This document shows positions 27,025 to 38,662 of a stretch of 64,000 bases of DNA, piece after piece. Under the pieces are notes generated by a model, which ran no database searches, was not told where the DNA came from, and saw nothing but the letters and a program-made list of their open reading frames with translations. Source of the DNA: Escherichia phage A4; sequence record ON286972. One strand, given 5' to 3'. The position numbers and the translations under genes were made by a program. Numbering within the stretch: position 1 is the first letter of the stretch; each line of letters begins with the position of its first letter.

Positions 27025-27055
27025 GTTGACAACCAACAAACAGTGATATAAACTA

Positions 27056-27087
27056 AGAGAACTTCATGAGAGGTTCTCTTTTTTTTA
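27056..27087 (+). terminator. hairpin + T8 run (terminator or 5' leader structure)
   Basis: AGAGAAC..GTTCTCT stem then TTTTTTTT; a TTGACA-15-TGaTATAAA promoter-like site lies just upstream (27026-27052). Confidence 0.4.
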
Positions 27088-27099
27088 TAAGGTGAAAAA

Positions 27100-27525
27100 A
27101 TGCTAAACGAACAAATCAAAGACGCACTACGTGTACTGAATCGCGAAGTTAGCCGTATCCATAAAAGTACTGATCGTTATAAAGTAATGCATGAAATTAA
27201 ACTAGAATTAGAAGCTATCAATAAGGGTGAATGGTTCCTTGAACCAGAATACCGTACACGTGAACCATCTGACGTTGAAAAAGCAATTGCAAAATTCATT
27301 TCTGGTCGTTATAGTGATGTATCAGAGAAAGATGTACTGATGAATTTACATTTAACCTCCTTAGAAATTGAAGAAAAATTCAAATTTGATTCACTGGACT
27401 GGGTAGAAATGATCATGGAACTTGAAGATGAATTTAAGGTTGAGATCGAAGATAAGTATGAATCAGGTGATACCAGAATCGTACATCTCGTAGCACATGT
27501 ACAAACAATGATCGATAAACGATAA
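27100..27525 (+). CDS. acyl carrier protein-like protein with N-terminal extension
   Basis: FDSLDWVEMIMELEDEFKVEIED closely parallels ACP [23 protein letters not shown] incl. phosphopantetheine Ser. Confidence 0.5.
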   Translation: MLNEQIKDALRVLNREVSRIHKSTDRYKVMHEIKLELEAINKGEWFLEPEYRTREPSDVEKAIAKFISGRYSDVSEKDVLMNLHLTSLEIEEKFKFDSLDWVEMIMELEDEFKVEIEDKYESGDTRIVHLVAHVQTMIDKR

Positions 27526-27570
27526 TTTTCAGCACTCTAAATAATATCATCATCTATAGGAGATATTATT

Positions 27571-27945
27571 ATGAGTGTACTAGATATTATTGTTTCAAAA
27601 GTACTGATACCGTTCTGGAAACCAATTGCGTTTGTTCTCCTGATGGCATCATGTACTTTTGGAGGCTGGAAGGCTAATACTTTTTATACTGGGTATAAAG
27701 AAAGTATTGAATTAAAAATAGAGAAGAAAGTAGATGCGGCTTTAAGTAAAATTGAAAGCCAAAATACCAAAAACTATGTAGAAACTAAACAGATAATGCA
27801 AAATAATGCAAAGGTAATAGAAACTAAAGTACCAGTTATTATTGAGCGTGAAGTGTATAGAAATGTATGTTTAGATGAAGAAGGGGTAAAACTTTTGAAT
27901 GATCTAAAACAAAATTCACTTGCAGCTAGAGAGAAATTTAAATGA
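27571..27945 (+). CDS. putative i-spanin (Rz-like)
   Basis: N-terminal TM segment, predicted coiled-coil remainder; overlaps downstream lipoprotein gene. Confidence 0.4.
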   Translation: MSVLDIIVSKVLIPFWKPIAFVLLMASCTFGGWKANTFYTGYKESIELKIEKKVDAALSKIESQNTKNYVETKQIMQNNAKVIETKVPVIIEREVYRNVCLDEEGVKLLNDLKQNSLAAREKFK

Positions 27946-28256
27946 AATACATATTAACATTCTTGATTACTTTTATGTTTATCACTGGGTGTTCTAATAA
28001 GGTTCCAGTTCAAGCGTCACCAATAATCACCCAGGAAATATTATTAGAACGATGCGAAGAAGATACACCAATTCCTAAAAAAATTGTTGTTGACTCACAT
28101 GGTAATAGAGGATATGCTGGTGATGAAATTCTTAACGTTCTGACGCGTTGGGATTCCATGTACAATGATTGTGCACTGAGATATGATGCACTAATTGATA
28201 CAATTCGCAAACTCCAAGACCAAAATATTCGTGTTAACATAAAAGTTAAGGAATAG
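27942..28256 (+). CDS. putative o-spanin (Rz1-like outer-membrane lipoprotein)
   Basis: signal peptide with lipobox ITGC; start overlaps upstream TM gene. Confidence 0.45.
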   Translation: MKYILTFLITFMFITGCSNKVPVQASPIITQEILLERCEEDTPIPKKIVVDSHGNRGYAGDEILNVLTRWDSMYNDCALRYDALIDTIRKLQDQNIRVNIKVKE

Positions 28257-28257
28257 T

Positions 28258-28869
28258 ATGTCTAAATATCATGTTTATTATGTAACCAAATTGAGTTTAC
28301 TAGATGAACTCAATCATACTAGTACCAAAATGAAACGTTATACTTATAATGGTATTACTTTCAGATACTTTCCACAAAAAGTACTAACATTCGTTAAGAA
28401 TTGTAAGTGCATTGCTTGTGGCATCGAGGCTACAGAAGTTCGAATCGAACGTTCCAACTGTAGTGATCCGGTATATGGTAAACCGCATTTAAATGTGTAT
28501 GCAGTATGTGGTCTTTATGAAGTTATGATGACTGTAGATCATAATCATCTTGCATCTAAAGGTGGTGCTGATTTGGAGTCAAACTTTAATACAATGTGTG
28601 CGAGATGTAATCAGTTGCGTTCAAATAAAACTGAAACGGTTGATGAATTCCTTGAGAAAGTCAAAAACCGAAATCTACTTGAAGAACATATGAATCGTTA
28701 TTTCAATAAGATTGAGAAGGAAAGTAAACGTCCTACACCAGAAATGCTCGAAGAACGTAGATTGCGTCAAGAGCTATGGGATAACGATCATCTGTGGCAT
28801 GTTCGTGAGTACGGGCGACACATGAAAGCATTAAAAAAGGCACAAAAGCTGTTGGATAAACATGAGTAA
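28258..28869 (+). CDS. HNH endonuclease
   Basis: VDHNHLASKGGADLESNFNTMCARCNQLRSNK (HNH core) plus upstream CxxC. Confidence 0.6.
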   Translation: MSKYHVYYVTKLSLLDELNHTSTKMKRYTYNGITFRYFPQKVLTFVKNCKCIACGIEATEVRIERSNCSDPVYGKPHLNVYAVCGLYEVMMTVDHNHLASKGGADLESNFNTMCARCNQLRSNKTETVDEFLEKVKNRNLLEEHMNRYFNKIEKESKRPTPEMLEERRLRQELWDNDHLWHVREYGRHMKALKKAQKLLDKHE

Positions 28870-33938: not shown

Positions 33939-34529
33939 TTGGTTATGGGTAAACTTATTTTCTTTAGTGGGAGTATGTCATCAGGAAAGAGTACACATCT
34001 TTTACAGAACGCATATAACCACAAGAAGAACGGGATGAAAGTCATCTACTTAACGAGTGCATTAGATGATCGTTATGGTACTGGTAAAATAACATCGAGA
34101 ATCGGTATAGAATCTGAAGCTCAAGTTATTCCAAAAGATGACCTAAGCGTTATTCATGACGTAATAAAACTATTACAGGTTGACAATGATTATAATAGTA
34201 TCTACGTTGATGAATGTCAGTTTTTAAATCGAAAACAAATTGATTTATTAGCCGATATTGCTGATGAGCATATGGTTGATGTATATTGTTATGGTATTAA
34301 AACCGATTTTGAATCAAATACATTTGAAGGTTCTCAAAGGTTATTTGAAATAGCAGATGAGATCCATGAATTAAAGAACGTATGTGAAAATCAAAAGTGC
34401 GGAAGAAATGCCATAATGAATGCTCGCATCGTAGATAGTACTGATAAAGTGTTTATTGGTGGTGATGAATCATATAAGAGCCTGTGTAGAAAATGTTATA
34501 AAAACTATATGAGGAATAAAAATGGTTGA
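33939..34529 (+). CDS. tdk: thymidine kinase
   Basis: P-loop FFSGSMSSGKST, ~195 aa, C-terminal CRKC pair typical of type II TK. Confidence 0.75.
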   Translation: MVMGKLIFFSGSMSSGKSTHLLQNAYNHKKNGMKVIYLTSALDDRYGTGKITSRIGIESEAQVIPKDDLSVIHDVIKLLQVDNDYNSIYVDECQFLNRKQIDLLADIADEHMVDVYCYGIKTDFESNTFEGSQRLFEIADEIHELKNVCENQKCGRNAIMNARIVDSTDKVFIGGDESYKSLCRKCYKNYMRNKNG

Positions 34530-34755
34530 TAAACTACTTAAAAATATTGCAGTACGCTTGTTGGATGGTTTTGTTGATACAGTGAAACTACTATTCAGTA
34601 CTGCAATGAGCATTTTAGTAATATTGATGTTCGCATTAGTATTACATTTTGTACCAGTATGGATTGTAATTACTGCAATTGTCGTTCTACTTATCATCAT
34701 CTCGTACTTCACATATCGTGAAGATTTGCAAGAGTTGCTTGATAAAGATGACTAA
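34522..34755 (+). CDS. small membrane protein
   Basis: two hydrophobic helices. Confidence 0.4.
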   Translation: MVDKLLKNIAVRLLDGFVDTVKLLFSTAMSILVILMFALVLHFVPVWIVITAIVVLLIIISYFTYREDLQELLDKDD

Positions 34756-35695: not shown

Positions 35696-35830
35696 ATGAT
35701 GAAAGGATTAAAGAAATTTGGATCGGATTTTGTTAAGTGTATTCGCTACACTTATGATGCAAATCCAGAAATGACCGCCATTGTCGGTGTGTTTATTACA
35801 TTAGTTGTGTTAAGCTTTGTAGTGGTGTAA
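35696..35830 (+). CDS. small membrane protein (44 aa)
   Basis: below track cutoff; C-terminal hydrophobic helix; AAAGGAAAAAAATG. Confidence 0.25.
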   Translation: MMKGLKKFGSDFVKCIRYTYDANPEMTAIVGVFITLVVLSFVVV

Positions 35831-36455: not shown

Positions 36456-36540
36456 CCTATAGGTTTGTCATACAATTGGCTAAATAAAATGGGTATTAAT
36501 ATACCCATAATTATAACCAAAAGAAATATCAAGATTTTAC

Positions 36541-36568
36541 TTGATATGAAATTGAAAGATGCTATACT
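36541..36568 (+). promoter_or_regulatory. putative sigma70-like promoter (TTGATA-16-TATACT)
   Basis: upstream of endolysin; followed by 14-bp perfect palindrome TTTCAGTACTGAAA at 36597-36610. Confidence 0.3.
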
Positions 36569-36702
36569 ACTTACATGTACAGAATGAAAGTTACCTTTTC
36601 AGTACTGAAAGTATTGTAGAAAGTCCGATGAGGCTTTTGCAAATGGCCTCATAAGCCCTCTTTGTAATTGCTCATCATAACACGCAAACAAAGGAGGCGT
36701 TT

Positions 36703-37629
36703 TTGACAATAGCGATACAAACACCTAAAACTAAGACAGCTATAGGCTTATTAGTTTCACTTGTTATCATCGCTGCGTTTGGATTTTATGGTTTTTCTCA
36801 ACATGATCGTGCATCATCATCGGGCGAAAGTCAGGTGCACAATTTAAAACCGCAAGTTACACAAATTCAAAAGCAGGAATTACCTAAAGGGTATACACCT
36901 AAAGTAGTTCCAGGCAGCGAGAAACATTATACTGTTGAATACGGTGATAGTTATCATTCGATAGCTAAGAAGTTTAAACCGCATAATGTGTTGTTTGAAG
37001 ATTACGTTACAGTATTGAAGAATATCAATCTTAATGCTAAACTTCATACATCGCAGGGTATCTTTATCCCAACAAAAGAGGATTTGAAAGACGTACTGTT
37101 ACCTGATGTGGTAGTACTTTTCGATTATAATGATCCTGAAATAGTTGCACACATCAAAGAAGCTGAAGGTTCAATTGAATTTCAGTCCAAGAACAAAAGA
37201 CGTTTACTTGGGGGAAAAGTTGGAGTTCCTTTCTACAATTCAAAATTTCATCCTTATAAGGATATGAAAGGTAATTATACAATAGGTTATGGACATTACT
37301 TAGGTAAGAACGAATCTGATGCAATTAAGTACAGAAACGGTATTACCAAAGCACAAGCACATAAACTATTACTTCAAGATTTGAAAAGGACATATAATGA
37401 CTTTACAACTCTAATGAAGAAAAAAAATGCAGTAAATCTTACAAAAGACCAACAACGTATTCTCTTTGACATGGCTTACACGATGGGTGTTGATAAGTTG
37501 GCCTCATTTAATAAACTATGGAGAAGTGCTGAAGCTGAAAATCATAAGAAGTTTAAAAGAGAAATCAAAAATTCCTTATGGTATAGGCAAGTAACAAACA
37601 GAGCGGATACTTTGTTAAGCTCAATCTAA
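36703..37629 (+). CDS. endolysin: signal-anchor + LysM-like + lysozyme domain
   Basis: TTG start after AAAGGAGG; N-terminal TM; YTVEYGDSYHSIAKKF LysM-like; NYTIGYGHYLG resembles T4-lysozyme TIGIGH core. Confidence 0.65.
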   Translation: MTIAIQTPKTKTAIGLLVSLVIIAAFGFYGFSQHDRASSSGESQVHNLKPQVTQIQKQELPKGYTPKVVPGSEKHYTVEYGDSYHSIAKKFKPHNVLFEDYVTVLKNINLNAKLHTSQGIFIPTKEDLKDVLLPDVVVLFDYNDPEIVAHIKEAEGSIEFQSKNKRRLLGGKVGVPFYNSKFHPYKDMKGNYTIGYGHYLGKNESDAIKYRNGITKAQAHKLLLQDLKRTYNDFTTLMKKKNAVNLTKDQQRILFDMAYTMGVDKLASFNKLWRSAEAENHKKFKREIKNSLWYRQVTNRADTLLSSI

Positions 37630-37643
37630 AAGGAAGGTGAAGT

Positions 37644-37976
37644 ATGCTAAATCTAGTTATTCAAGGTAATGTTGATATTACTCCAGCAATCCATGACGCA
37701 ATTCATCAAGAAGCAAACACTCTAAATAAATTTAGTGATTCTTCAGTACTGAATATTGGTGTTCATGTGAAAAAAGAGCATAAGACACAGTACGCAGTAA
37801 CTTTAACATCAGGTGGTAAGTCTGTTACTGCCGATGATGCAGATTTATACAAGGCGATTGTCGATTCATTCGAAAAAATGGAAACTGTATTCAGTAAAGA
37901 CAAAAGCATTAAATTGCACCGCCGAAACCATCCAGACCGTCCAGTTGTAGTTGATGTAACTGACGAAGAAGAGTAA
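37644..37976 (+). CDS. hypothetical protein
   Basis: 110-aa ORF, AAGGAAGGTGA ribosome-binding site. Confidence 0.45.
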   Translation: MLNLVIQGNVDITPAIHDAIHQEANTLNKFSDSSVLNIGVHVKKEHKTQYAVTLTSGGKSVTADDADLYKAIVDSFEKMETVFSKDKSIKLHRRNHPDRPVVVDVTDEEE

Positions 37977-37982
37977 TATAAT

Positions 37983-38012
37983 AAAGGGACAGATTAATTC
38001 TGTCCCTTTTCT
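37983..38012 (+). terminator. rho-independent terminator
   Basis: GGGACAG-loop-CTGTCCC then TTTT. Confidence 0.55.
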
Positions 38013-38476: not shown

Positions 38477-38662
38477 ATGGAATATACAATAGGTGCAATA
38501 GTATGTATCGCAGCATTATTAGGTGGCATTGGTGTGATGATTTACTTTGATGCAGAACCCAGTACTGAAATGGGTACAACCCTGGAACTCAAACCTGGCA
38601 TTAAGGTGAACGACTCTTACTGTTACGATCCACATAGTAATAAGTATGTGATTTGTTTATGA
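38477..38662 (+). CDS. small membrane protein
   Basis: N-terminal hydrophobic helix. Confidence 0.35.
   Translation: MEYTIGAIVCIAALLGGIGVMIYFDAEPSTEMGTTLELKPGIKVNDSYCYDPHSNKYVICL

What the first reader, a model, noticed from the sequence alone, without database searches (positions are those of the whole stretch)
36541..37629. TTG-initiated signal-anchor endolysin with LysM, and a 14-bp palindrome in its leader
The only long ORF starts at TTG just after a strong AAAGGAGG. The protein has an N-terminal TM anchor, a LysM-like segment and a lysozyme-like TIGYGH core. The perfect palindrome TTTCAGTACTGAAA (36597-36610) sits between a putative promoter and the gene, as an operator would, and contains the genome-wide iterated motif. 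The spanin pair is ~9 kb away (27571-28256) and no holin is evident.
Basis: partly seen in the sequence, partly recalled or inferred. Interest (0 to 1): 0.4.

Follow-up and report, generated by a model that had tools for sequence, protein, structure and literature searches.

The report
Exported LysM lysozyme of a jumbo phage
This is the membrane-targeted, cell-wall-binding lysozyme already described in RaK2-like jumbo phages (probably their endolysin); the TTG start is real and conserved, but the palindrome is one copy of a genome-wide motif, not a demonstrable operator.

Summary
ORF 36703-37629 (+) starts at TTG, 5 nt after AAAGGAGG. It encodes 308 aa: an N-terminal hydrophobic anchor, a disordered linker, a divergent LysM domain and a T4-lysozyme-type (GH24) domain with invariant E155/D187/T193. 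It is the ortholog of 121Q gp532, CBB_187 and RaK2 gp506. That architecture and the endolysin/SAR suggestion were published in 2017, so the protein is a new member of a known kind.

New here:
- The start codon is non-ATG in 17 of 18 lineages, against about 5% of neighbouring genes.
- All three genera checked (four loci) carry a near-consensus sigma-70 promoter.
- A single-copy, almost invariant leader hairpin (GTAGAAAGTCC...GRCTTTGTGC) is conserved across genera.
- The gene is co-transcribed with an hpf-like gene.

The 14-bp palindrome is real, but it lies in a 15-bp insertion missing from the nearest Asteriusvirus genomes. It is one of 49 CAGTACTG copies (0.7 expected) and one of 11 perfect 14-bp palindromes in the window (5.8 expected). 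An operator role is unsupported; it more plausibly forms the first leader hairpin.

Predicted Shine-Dalgarno masking did not beat shuffled controls. Stable anchor, SAR and cleaved signal peptide cannot be told apart here. Spanins at 27571-28256 are confirmed. No holin is identifiable.

The parts
36541..36568 (+). Sigma-70-type promoter, TTGATA-16 nt-TATACT, with a TG extended -10
   Evidence: scores it 10 of 12 matches with TG. It is conserved in Asteriusvirus relatives. RaK2 and Yersinia phage fHe-Yen9-04 carry TTGACA-17-TAAAAT upstream of their orthologs.
36597..36610 (.). Perfect 14-bp palindrome TTTCAGTACTGAAA, the consensus copy of the genome-wide CAGTACTG motif; it could form leader hairpin HP1 (UUUUCA-GUAC-UGAAAG)
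   Evidence: It lies in a 15-bp insertion relative to vB_Ec-M-J and G17. It is identical in two closer relatives, L056 and L057. Hairpins with different sequences occupy the same position in other genera.
36616..36640 (+). Almost invariant leader element GUAGAAAGUC...GGCUUUUGC (hairpin A), one copy per genome
   Evidence: In one search, 100% of 134 cells pair, against 27-58% when the partner columns are slid. It is unique in the window. Twelve exact matches in IMG/VR all fall in contigs that carry the lysozyme gene.
36628..36652 (+). Alternative leader hairpin B (AUGAGGC-loop-GCCUCAU), mutually exclusive with hairpin A
   Evidence: Compensatory changes occur at two stem positions (CG/AU and GC/AU). 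The covariation score is 0.309 against 0.233 for shuffles, reached by 8 of 500 shuffles.
36655..36664 (+). Pyrimidine-rich stretch GCCCUCUUUG, predicted to pair with the Shine-Dalgarno sequence
   Evidence: MFE structures pair it with the SD. The pairing is not significant against shuffled leaders for this locus: 21 of 60 shuffles do as well.
36690..36697 (+). Shine-Dalgarno sequence AAAGGAGG
   Evidence: Conserved as AAGGAGG or AAGGAGA across all orthologous loci.
36703..37629 (+). CDS, TTG start, 308 aa: exported LysM-GH24 lysozyme (ortholog of 121Q gp532, CBB_187, RaK2 gp506)
   Evidence: Full-length match to phrog_15410, E = 2.9e-154. Orthology and synteny.
36739..36795 (+). Hydrophobic N-terminal segment, aa 13-31 (AIGLLVSLVIIAAFGFYGF): signal anchor, possible SAR domain or signal-peptide core
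36919..37071 (+). Divergent LysM domain, aa 73-123
37129..37626 (+). GH24 T4-lysozyme-like catalytic domain, aa 143-308; E155, D187 and T193 invariant; about 23 extra residues between Glu and Asp compared with T4 lysozyme
   Evidence: Foldseek TM-score 0.69 relative to T4 lysozyme.
37644..37976 (+). Co-transcribed hpf/RaiA-like gene (Ribosomal_S30AE)
   Evidence: Pfam E = 3.8e-10. Synteny.
37983..38009 (+). Stem-loop AAAGGGACAG-N7-CTGTCCCTTT followed by TCTT: the likely end of the lysozyme-hpf operon
   Evidence: A terminator is annotated at the same place in G17.
27571..27945 (+). i-spanin (Rz-like)
   Evidence: phrog_1152, E = 7.9e-26. N-terminal transmembrane segment.
27942..28256 (+). o-spanin candidate (lipobox ITGC); overlaps the i-spanin stop by 4 nt
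   Evidence: Pfam LysC/Rz1-like hit, E = 0.0022, below the cut-off.
34522..34755 (+). 77-aa protein with two transmembrane segments and a charged C-terminus: the only holin-shaped ORF near the lysozyme (candidate only)
   Evidence: Its PHROG family has no known function.

Best explanation
Identity (shown). The ORF encodes the conserved exported muramidase of RaK2-like jumbo phages.

Export and action (inferred).
- The positively charged N-terminus and the hydrophobic segment (aa 13-31) send it through the Sec pathway with the C-terminus in the periplasm.
- A disordered Ser/Thr/Gln-rich linker of about 40 residues, followed by a LysM domain, places a GH24 T4-lysozyme-type domain (E155/D187/T193) on the peptidoglycan.
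- It therefore reaches its substrate without a large-hole holin.
- It most likely acts as the phage endolysin, together with the spanin pair 9 kb upstream. Some unidentified membrane-depolarising event presumably triggers lysis.

Expression (anatomy shown, consequences inferred).
- The gene is transcribed with an hpf-like gene from a near-consensus sigma-70 promoter.
- The leader is about 130 nt long and structured.
- Output of this toxic protein is probably held low by a non-AUG start codon. The conserved leader hairpin may add further control.

Palindrome (inferred). It is the local copy of the genome-wide CAGTACTG motif. At most it supplies the first hairpin of the leader RNA. It is not a dedicated operator.
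For: Identity and domains.
- Searches give the family hits, the model and the structural match.
- E155, G156, D187 and T193 are invariant in 36-37 homologs.

Orthology and literature.
- The protein is orthologous to 121Q gp532 and phAPEC6 gp293c.
- gp293 was not detected in the virion proteome (PMC7247149).
- CBB_187 was reported as toxic on induction in E. coli (data not shown there) and was predicted to be the endolysin (PMC5259590).
- The other small GH24 paralog (162 aa) sits between the gp5-like hub gene and the gp25-like baseplate gene in 121Q. That points to a baseplate role for the paralog.

Topology. The N-terminus carries 2-7 K/R and 0-2 D/E, and the sequence after the segment is polar or acidic.

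Start codon. TTG or GTG is used in 17 of 18 lineages. Only 5 of 102 annotated neighbouring genes use a non-ATG start.

Promoter and operon. Promoters are; the terminator is.

Leader hairpins..

Palindrome status..

Promoter class. The spanin genes also lie downstream of a sigma-70-like site at 27026. That promoter type therefore does not argue against a lysis role.
Against: - No enzymatic, export or timing data exist for this protein or any ortholog.
- Asteriusvirus genomes carry a soluble 162-aa T4-type lysozyme that is lytic in vitro (LysUE1, PMC12805682). It could be the true endolysin.
- A strong sigma-70 promoter suggests early transcription, which is odd for an endolysin.
- No holin or pinholin was identified.
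- Predicted Shine-Dalgarno masking is no better than in shuffled leaders for most loci. The translational-damping idea therefore rests mainly on the start codon.
- The leader element could act at the DNA level rather than the RNA level.
Confidence: 0.6

Rival explanations
1. True SAR endolysin. The N-terminal segment first tethers an inactive enzyme to the inner membrane. It then leaves the bilayer when a pinholin collapses the proton-motive force, as in P1 Lyz and phage 21 R.
For: The protein has an uncleaved-looking N-terminal hydrophobic segment. The same suggestion was made for CBB_187, which was reported as toxic on induction (data not shown). Several homologs have Glu or Asp inside or just after the segment, which shortens the hydrophobic run to 13-15 residues and would weaken anchoring.
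Against: Gly/Ala/Ser/Thr content is 37% (family mean 35%). The Kyte-Doolittle mean of 2.3 is that of a solid transmembrane helix. About 110 residues (aa 32-142: linker plus LysM) separate the segment from the catalytic domain, so the segment cannot refold into the active site as in R21. No pinholin was identified.
Confidence: 0.2
2. Secreted endolysin with a cleaved Sec signal peptide. Signal peptidase I would cut after the conserved LLAAA (IAA in this window), releasing a soluble periplasmic LysM-lysozyme. Activity would be held back until the membrane is de-energised, as in Lys44 of phage fOg44 or LysTP712.
For: A basic n-region of about 12 residues is followed by a hydrophobic run ending in a nearly invariant Ala-Ala(-Ala). 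In several homologs an acidic residue follows within 1-3 positions. The combination of an N-terminal transmembrane segment with a signal peptidase site, a muramidase and LysM domains is documented in lactococcal phages (PMC9371310).
Against: In this window and most homologs the hydrophobic stretch continues past the Ala run (FGFYGF, IGFIGF). There is no polar c-region or helix breaker. No signal-peptide predictor could be run here.
Confidence: 0.15
3. Not the endolysin. This would be an early-expressed, membrane-tethered peptidoglycan-remodelling enzyme (for example cell-wall loosening or superinfection-related), while the 162-aa soluble T4-type lysozyme performs lysis.
For: A near-consensus sigma-70 promoter is present in all three genera checked. 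The neighbours are metabolic or host-takeover genes (hpf, CCA-adding enzyme, nudix hydrolase, glutaredoxin). LysUE1 is active in vitro.
Against: The 162-aa paralog is embedded between the gp5-like and gp25-like baseplate genes. A possibly related 159-aa lysozyme-like protein of PA5oct is virion-associated (homology not checked). Lysis genes are also scattered in T4-like phages (my own knowledge). The spanin genes also follow a sigma-70-like site.
Confidence: 0.2
4. The palindrome is an operator. A dimeric DNA-binding protein would sit on TTTCAGTACTGAAA and block transcription from the upstream promoter.
For: It has perfect dyad symmetry and lies between the promoter and the gene. A dyad-symmetric element of varying sequence occupies the same position in other genera.
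Against: It is absent from the closest Asteriusvirus genomes. There are 49 CAGTACTG and 158 AGTACT sites, present in all reading frames and in proportion to coding fraction. It starts about 20 nt downstream of the predicted transcription start. The arms change sequence between lineages while staying complementary, which is what an RNA stem does, not a protein-binding site. No regulator was found.
Confidence: 0.08
5. T4 gene-e-style translational masking. Early transcripts would hide the ribosome-binding site in a hairpin, and a later transcript or processing event would expose it.
For: MFE structures of all six leaders tested pair the Shine-Dalgarno sequence. Whole-leader z-scores reach -4.6.
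Against: With the SD held fixed and the upstream leader shuffled, the SD is still 42-76% paired. Only 5 of 15 loci beat 90% of shuffles. No TATAAATA or ATAAATA late-promoter motif lies in or near the leader.
Confidence: 0.15

Closest known systems
CBB_187 / 121Q gp532 / RaK2 gp506 / GAP32 gp180, the predicted endolysin of RaK2-like jumbo phages (Buttimer et al. 2017, PMC5259590); phrog_15410
   Same: The length is about the same (300-311 aa). The three-part architecture matches: transmembrane segment, weak LysM, lysozyme. Synteny with the hpf-like and CCA-adding-enzyme genes is shared. Identity is 46-81% in tblastn and 86-94% to unnamed database proteins.
   Different: Nothing essential differs. 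This window's phage has a 79-bp and a 15-bp insertion in the upstream intergenic region. The 15-bp insertion creates the palindrome.
T4 lysozyme (gene e product, GH24, PF00959)
   Same: The fold matches (Foldseek TM-score 0.69 over all of T4 lysozyme). The catalytic Glu, Asp and Thr and the YTIGYGH core are present.
   Different: About 23 extra residues lie between the catalytic Glu and Asp. This insertion is shared with the phage's own tail lysozyme and its 162-aa paralog. The protein also has an N-terminal export segment and a LysM domain, whereas T4 lysozyme is cytoplasmic and holin-dependent.
SAR endolysins (P1 Lyz, phage 21 R, phiKMV gp45)
   Same: Both have an N-terminal hydrophobic segment on a GH24-type muramidase. 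Sec-dependent, holin-independent export is the expected consequence.
   Different: The segment is more hydrophobic (37% Gly/Ala/Ser/Thr). About 110 residues separate it from the catalytic domain. No partner pinholin is known.
Secretory or anchored modular endolysins of Gram-positive phages (fOg44 Lys44; lactococcal P335/TP712 group: transmembrane segment + signal peptidase site + GH25 + 2 LysM; PMC9371310)
   Same: One polypeptide combines an N-terminal export signal, a muramidase and LysM wall binding.
   Different: The host is Gram-negative. The catalytic domain is GH24 rather than GH25. There is a single LysM, placed N-terminal to the catalytic domain.
Translational control of T4 gene e (McPheeters et al. 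1986; cited from my own knowledge)
   Same: A lysozyme gene is transcribed from a host-type promoter. Its ribosome-binding site is predicted to be base-paired.
   Different: There is no internal late promoter. The pairing is not better than in shuffled controls. Here the conserved weak start codon looks like the main damping device.

Membership tests
GH24 / T4-type phage lysozyme (PF00959) | Profile match above the curated threshold | tested here: met
   48.2 bits against a cut-off of 22.3. All 36 homologs match. hhalign to T4 lysozyme gives probability 97.6%.
GH24 / T4-type phage lysozyme (PF00959) | Catalytic Glu, Asp and Thr (T4 lysozyme E11, D20, T26) | tested here: met
   D187 and T193 align to D20 and T26. 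E155-G156 sits at the end of the first helix of the AF2 model, as E11-G12 does in T4 lysozyme, and is invariant. The Glu assignment is structural inference, not a direct alignment.
GH24 / T4-type phage lysozyme (PF00959) | Two-lobed lysozyme fold | tested here: met
   AF2 pLDDT is above 90 for aa 80-299. Foldseek against the PDB puts T4 lysozyme first, with TM-score 0.69 relative to the target.
GH24 / T4-type phage lysozyme (PF00959) | Muramidase activity | not testable with these tools
   No assay exists for this protein or any ortholog. CBB_187 could not be expressed.
LysM domain (PF01476) | Profile match above the curated threshold | tested here: not met
   15.0 bits against 20.9, covering 17 of 43 profile positions for this protein. 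At family level, 29 of 36 homologs match at E <= 0.05, best 1.3e-6.
LysM domain (PF01476) | Beta-alpha-alpha-beta fold of about 45 residues | tested here: met
   The AF2 model has strand 75-77, helix 84-91, helix 98-108 and strand 119-121, with pLDDT 90-94.
SAR endolysin | N-terminal transmembrane segment on a muralytic enzyme | tested here: met
   aa 13-31, Kyte-Doolittle mean 2.31.
SAR endolysin | Segment rich in weakly hydrophobic residues (Gly/Ala/Ser/Thr about 50% or more) | tested here: not met
   37% here and 35% as the family mean.
SAR endolysin | Release from the membrane on depolarisation, which activates the enzyme | not testable with these tools
   Needs fractionation with and without an uncoupler.
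SAR endolysin | Partner pinholin | tested here: inconclusive
   The only candidate is an unannotated 77-aa protein with two transmembrane segments at 34522-34755. Both segments are strongly hydrophobic. Most of the genome lies outside the window.
RaK2-like phage TM-LysM-lysozyme orthogroup (phrog_15410) | Full-length match and conserved gene neighbourhood | tested here: met
   E = 2.9e-154 over 2-308 of 311 profile positions. The hpf-like gene lies downstream, followed by the CCA-adding enzyme, nudix and glutaredoxin genes in relatives.
Repressor operator | Dyad-symmetric site specific to the regulated promoter and conserved with it | tested here: not met
   It is absent from the nearest relatives. 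The motif occurs 49 to 158 times in 64 kb regardless of coding status. It lies downstream of the promoter.
T4 gene-e-type translational masking | Ribosome-binding-site sequestration beyond chance, plus an internal late promoter | tested here: not met
   Shuffle control. No late-promoter motif.

The most novel reading that the evidence does not exclude
Four features together could form a dedicated post-transcriptional timing device: the near-consensus host-type promoter, the single-copy almost invariant leader element (GUAGAAAGUC...GRCUUUGUGC), its mutually exclusive alternative hairpin, and the conserved non-AUG start. Such a device would let an early-transcribed, Sec-exported and toxic endolysin be made only in small amounts or only late. 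That is the logic of T4 gene e reached by a different mechanism, possibly through a phage protein that binds the invariant hairpin.
Probability: 0.25. Interest if true: 0.55.

Novelty: new member of a known kind. Interest (0 to 1): 0.27.

Why it matters
How jumbo phages time lysis is largely unknown. No holin has been defined for the RaK2-like group, and two different GH24 enzymes compete for the endolysin role. If the 308-aa protein is the endolysin, its export does not need a holin, and control must lie elsewhere. The conserved weak start codon and the invariant leader hairpin are concrete, mutable handles for testing that. For phage-derived enzybiotics, the LysM-GH24 part (aa 73-308) is a natural modular lysin that binds Gram-negative peptidoglycan. 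As an annotation, however, the finding repeats what was published for the orthologs in 2017.

Tried and rejected
1. Shine-Dalgarno sequestration as a conserved switch. MFE folds looked convincing. With the SD fixed and the upstream leader shuffled, the SD is still 42-76% paired. Only the CBB/Eneladus-type leaders stand out. Downgraded.
2. Late promoter inside the leader, T4 e style. No TATAAATA or ATAAATA lies near the gene.
3. Known RNA family. Rfam gave nothing at gathering thresholds in the whole window and only noise in the leader.
4. Literature on AGTACT or CAGTACTG in phages. Two searches returned only primers and unrelated papers.
5. The palindrome as a statistically exceptional object. 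Rejected, because the window holds 11 perfect 14-bp palindromes.
6. The leader element as a repeated regulatory signal. Rejected, because it is unique in the window and single-copy per genome.
7. A whole-leader consensus structure by RNAalifold. Only hairpin A survives the alignment. Hairpin B and HP1 had to be examined by hand, and MAFFT misaligns two rows by one column.
It was repeated without that row.
9. The 210-aa ORF inserted after the lysozyme gene in L056 and L057. It has no Pfam hit and is unrelated to the window's HNH gene.
10. Transcript-timing data. None was found for this phage group. The PA5oct paper lists no ortholog of this gene among its peptidoglycan-degrading proteins.
Full report
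**What the window is.** The region is about 85% identical at the DNA level to Asteriusvirus jumbo coliphages (121Q, PBECO4-like, G17, vB_Ec-M-J, fEgEco12). More distant orthologous loci exist in Eneladusvirus (Yersinia fHe-Yen9-04, Erwinia pEa_SNUABM_12), in CBB and GAP32, and in Klebsiella phage RaK2.

**The ORF and its start.**
- ORF 36703-37629 (+) is the only long ORF in the region.
- Its frame opens after a TAA at 36652, and the first possible start is TTG at 36703. AAAGGAGG (36690-36697) lies 5 nt upstream.
- There is no in-frame ATG for 187 codons. The next in-frame start, GTG at codon 45, would remove the conserved N-terminus.
- Annotated orthologs have the same length of 927 nt.
- Across the 18 loci examined, including the window, the codon at this position is TTG in 13 loci (Asteriusvirus, Eneladusvirus, CBB, GAP32 and metagenomic relatives), GTG in 4 loci and ATG only in RaK2.
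- Among 102 annotated neighbouring genes in two relatives, 97 start with ATG.
- The TTG is therefore real, and a weak start codon appears to be selected in this gene family.
- Some database entries (317-319 aa) extend to an upstream TTG that has no Shine-Dalgarno sequence. That is a gene-caller artefact.

**The protein.**
- *Catalytic domain.* Pfam gives Phage_lysozyme at 48.2 bits. PDB sequence search and hhalign align aa 183-307 to T4 lysozyme residues 16-152, with D187 matching D20 and T193 matching T26.
- *Model.* An AlphaFold2 model built on 36 homologs has pLDDT above 90 over most of aa 80-299. Foldseek places T4 lysozyme first, with TM-score 0.69 over the whole of T4 lysozyme.
- *Catalytic Glu.* The first helix of the domain (aa 145-156) ends in the invariant E155-G156, the counterpart of E11-G12 in T4 lysozyme. 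About 23 extra residues lie between this Glu and D187.
- *Shared insertion.* The same insertion is visible in the phage group's 887-aa tail lysozyme and in its 162-aa lysozyme. All three are therefore paralogs of one GH24 subtype.
- *LysM domain.* Residues 75-121 form a beta-alpha-alpha-beta unit. LysM is below threshold for this protein, but 29 of 36 homologs match it, best E = 1.3e-6.
- *Linker.* Residues 32-72 are low-confidence and Ser/Thr/Gln-rich, consistent with a flexible linker.
- *N-terminal segment.* Residues 13-31 are hydrophobic (Kyte-Doolittle 2.31). Lys residues precede them and polar or acidic residues follow, so the C-terminus should be periplasmic.

**What is already known.** Buttimer et al. 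(2017) described CBB_187 and its homologs in GAP32, 121Q (gp532) and RaK2 (gp506). They reported a three-part protein: an N-terminal transmembrane domain, a weak LysM domain and a lysozyme domain. They predicted it to be the endolysin, pointed to SAR endolysins, and noted apparent toxicity on induction in E. coli. I confirmed that 121Q gp532 and phAPEC6 gp293c are the orthologs. gp293 was not found in the phAPEC6 virion proteome, whereas the 96-kDa tail lysozyme was.

**Is it the endolysin?**
- Asteriusviruses also carry a 162-aa soluble T4-type lysozyme. Its UE-S1 version, LysUE1, was purified and lyses cells in vitro with EDTA.
- I located its 121Q copy from the published primer. It sits between the gp5-like hub-lysozyme gene and the gp25-like baseplate gene, which suggests a tail-associated role.
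- The 308-aa protein remains the better endolysin candidate, but this is inference. I put it at about 0.6.
- The lysozyme gene is not in a lysis cassette. Its neighbours are hpf-like, CCA-adding enzyme, nudix and glutaredoxin genes.
- The Rz-like i-spanin (27571-27945) and the lipoprotein o-spanin candidate (27942-28256) are 9 kb upstream. Scattered lysis genes are normal in T4-like phages (my own knowledge).
- No holin is annotated in the window or within +/-20 kb in fEgEco12.
- Small membrane proteins nearby are only candidates: 34522-34755 (two transmembrane segments), 35696-35830 and 38477-38662.

**Export mode.** Three models all give holin-independent export.
- *Stable signal anchor.* This is favoured by the length and hydrophobicity of the segment. 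A disordered linker of about 40 residues could plausibly let the LysM and catalytic domains reach the wall while tethered (inference).
It is about 110 residues from the catalytic domain, so the defining compositional feature is not met. Several homologs do have an acidic residue inside the segment.
- *Cleaved signal peptide.* The nearly invariant LLAAA (IAA here) could be a signal peptidase I site, and some homologs have only 13-15 hydrophobic residues before an acidic one.
- I could not run a signal-peptide predictor, so the three models remain open.

**Expression signals.**
- A TTGATA-16-TGcTATACT site (36541-36568) is conserved in Asteriusvirus.
- RaK2 and fHe-Yen9-04 have perfect TTGACA-17-TAAAAT sites upstream of their orthologs. 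The -10 hexamer aligns at the left edge of the CBB/GAP32 group leaders.
- A stem-loop after the hpf-like gene (37983-38009) matches a terminator annotated in G17. Lysozyme and hpf are therefore probably one operon.
- The spanin genes also follow a sigma-70-like site at 27026, so this promoter class is not restricted to non-lysis genes.

**The leader.**
- *Length.* The leader is roughly 130 nt long.
- *Hairpin A sequence.* The core, GTAGAAAGTCC-N(7-10)-GRCTTTGTGC (36616-36640), is almost invariant in 15 leaders whose proteins are only 47-55% identical to the query.
- *Hairpin A pairing.* It folds as a 9-bp hairpin in which all 134 cells pair. When the partner columns are slid, only 27-58% pair. 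The changes seen are U-G to U-A.
- *Copy number.* The element occurs once in the window. Twelve exact matches in IMG/VR all lie in contigs that carry the lysozyme gene, one per contig.
- *Hairpin B.* An overlapping alternative hairpin (36628-36652) shows compensatory changes at two positions. Its covariation score is 0.309 against 0.233 for shuffles, reached by 8 of 500 shuffles.
- *RNA or DNA?* Whether these elements act as RNA or as a dyad-symmetric DNA site cannot be decided here.
- *SD masking.* MFE folds pair the Shine-Dalgarno sequence in all six leaders tested. With the SD fixed and the upstream leader shuffled, it is still 42-76% paired, and only 5 of 15 loci beat 90% of shuffles. I do not claim SD masking as a finding.

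**The palindrome.**
- TTTCAGTACTGAAA (36597-36610) is exact.
- It lies in a 15-bp insertion relative to vB_Ec-M-J and G17, which have only gAGTACTG or tTGTACTG at that place.
- It is identical in two closer relatives, whose whole leaders are 98-100% identical to the window. That is too little divergence to say anything about selection.
- It is the full consensus of a genome-wide motif. AGTACT occurs 158 times (21 expected) and CAGTACTG 49 times (about 0.7 expected), with flanks favouring ttC...Gaaa.
- Four of the window's 11 perfect 14-bp palindromes are built on this motif.
- Sites occur in all three reading frames, and intergenic sites occur in proportion to intergenic length. The motif is therefore not a promoter-linked operator.
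- A short hairpin directly upstream of the GTAGAAAGTCC anchor is present in most lineages, with different but still complementary arms: AGTAGTA/TACTATT, AGTAGTC/GACTATT, TTAACTC/GAGTTAA and ATAGTACT/AGTACTAT. The window has TTTTCA/TGAAAG.
- Each of these hairpins alone is only weakly significant. Between 1 and 211 of 500 shuffles do as well.
- The most economical reading is that the palindrome supplies this leader hairpin in the window's lineage. An operator role has no support.

**Verdict.** The endolysin-type reading is reasonable but already published for the orthologs, and it remains untested. The SAR mechanism is not established, and its compositional criterion is not met. The operator reading is not supported. 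The modestly new points are the conserved non-AUG start, the conserved host-type promoter, and the invariant single-copy leader hairpin.

Noticed in passing
whole window (e.g. 1811, 12398, 13638, 23963, 36597, 39115, 41428, 54290); also L001, L003: AGTACT is 7.4-fold over-represented (158 against 21 expected) and CAGTACTG about 70-fold (49 against 0.7), spread evenly along the window. Of 125 Ser-Thr dipeptides, 73 are written AGTACT (17.9 expected from codon usage), and Ser-Thr itself is enriched (125 against 77). Selection therefore acts on the DNA and even shapes proteins. The same enrichment is seen in vB_Ec-M-J and RaK2. Site positions are conserved at 56%, against 33% for all hexamers. 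No explanation or publication was found.
   Followed up: partly
window 37644-37976: A phage-encoded hpf/RaiA-like ribosome-associated factor (Ribosomal_S30AE, E = 3.8e-10) lies 14 nt after the lysozyme stop. It is apparently in the same operon, and the pairing is conserved in Asteriusvirus and Eneladusvirus.
   Followed up: partly
L056 1254-3448 and L057 (relatives of window 36456-37976): The intergenic leader of L056 is 100% identical to the window, yet the lysozyme protein is only 86% identical, with divergence confined to the C-terminal third. A 210-aa ORF with no Pfam match is inserted between the lysozyme and hpf genes. This looks like a recombination mosaic, possibly left by a mobile endonuclease-like gene.
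   Followed up: partly
window 37093-37117: A terminator-like hairpin, GTACTGTTAC...GTGGTAGTAC followed by TTTTCGATT, lies inside the lysozyme CDS between the LysM and catalytic domains. Its arms are GTAC-motif sequences. It may be chance.
   Followed up: no
window 36457-36535: A 79-bp stretch is absent from vB_Ec-M-J and G17. It holds a perfect 8-bp-stem hairpin, ATGGGTAT-taat-ATACCCAT (36489-36508), just after the upstream gene. It could be a terminator or insulator ahead of the lysozyme promoter.
   Followed up: no
window 27026-28869: A sigma-70-like site (TTGACA-17-TAAACT at 27026) precedes an acyl-carrier-protein-like gene (27100-27525). The two spanin genes and an HNH endonuclease gene (28258-28869) follow. 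This is an unusual company for spanins.
   Followed up: no
L058 3184-6783 (phage 121Q): The 162-aa T4-type lysozyme (the LysUE1 homolog) lies between the 887-aa gp5-like hub-lysozyme gene and a gp25-like gene. All three GH24 paralogs of these phages share the insertion between the catalytic Glu and Asp (EG-x3-Q...KF-x-x-Y-x-D).
   Followed up: partly
window 34522-34755, 35696-35830, 38477-38662: Three small conserved membrane proteins of unknown function (77 aa with two transmembrane segments; 44 aa; 61 aa) flank the lysozyme gene. Any of them could be a holin or antiholin-type partner.
   Followed up: partly
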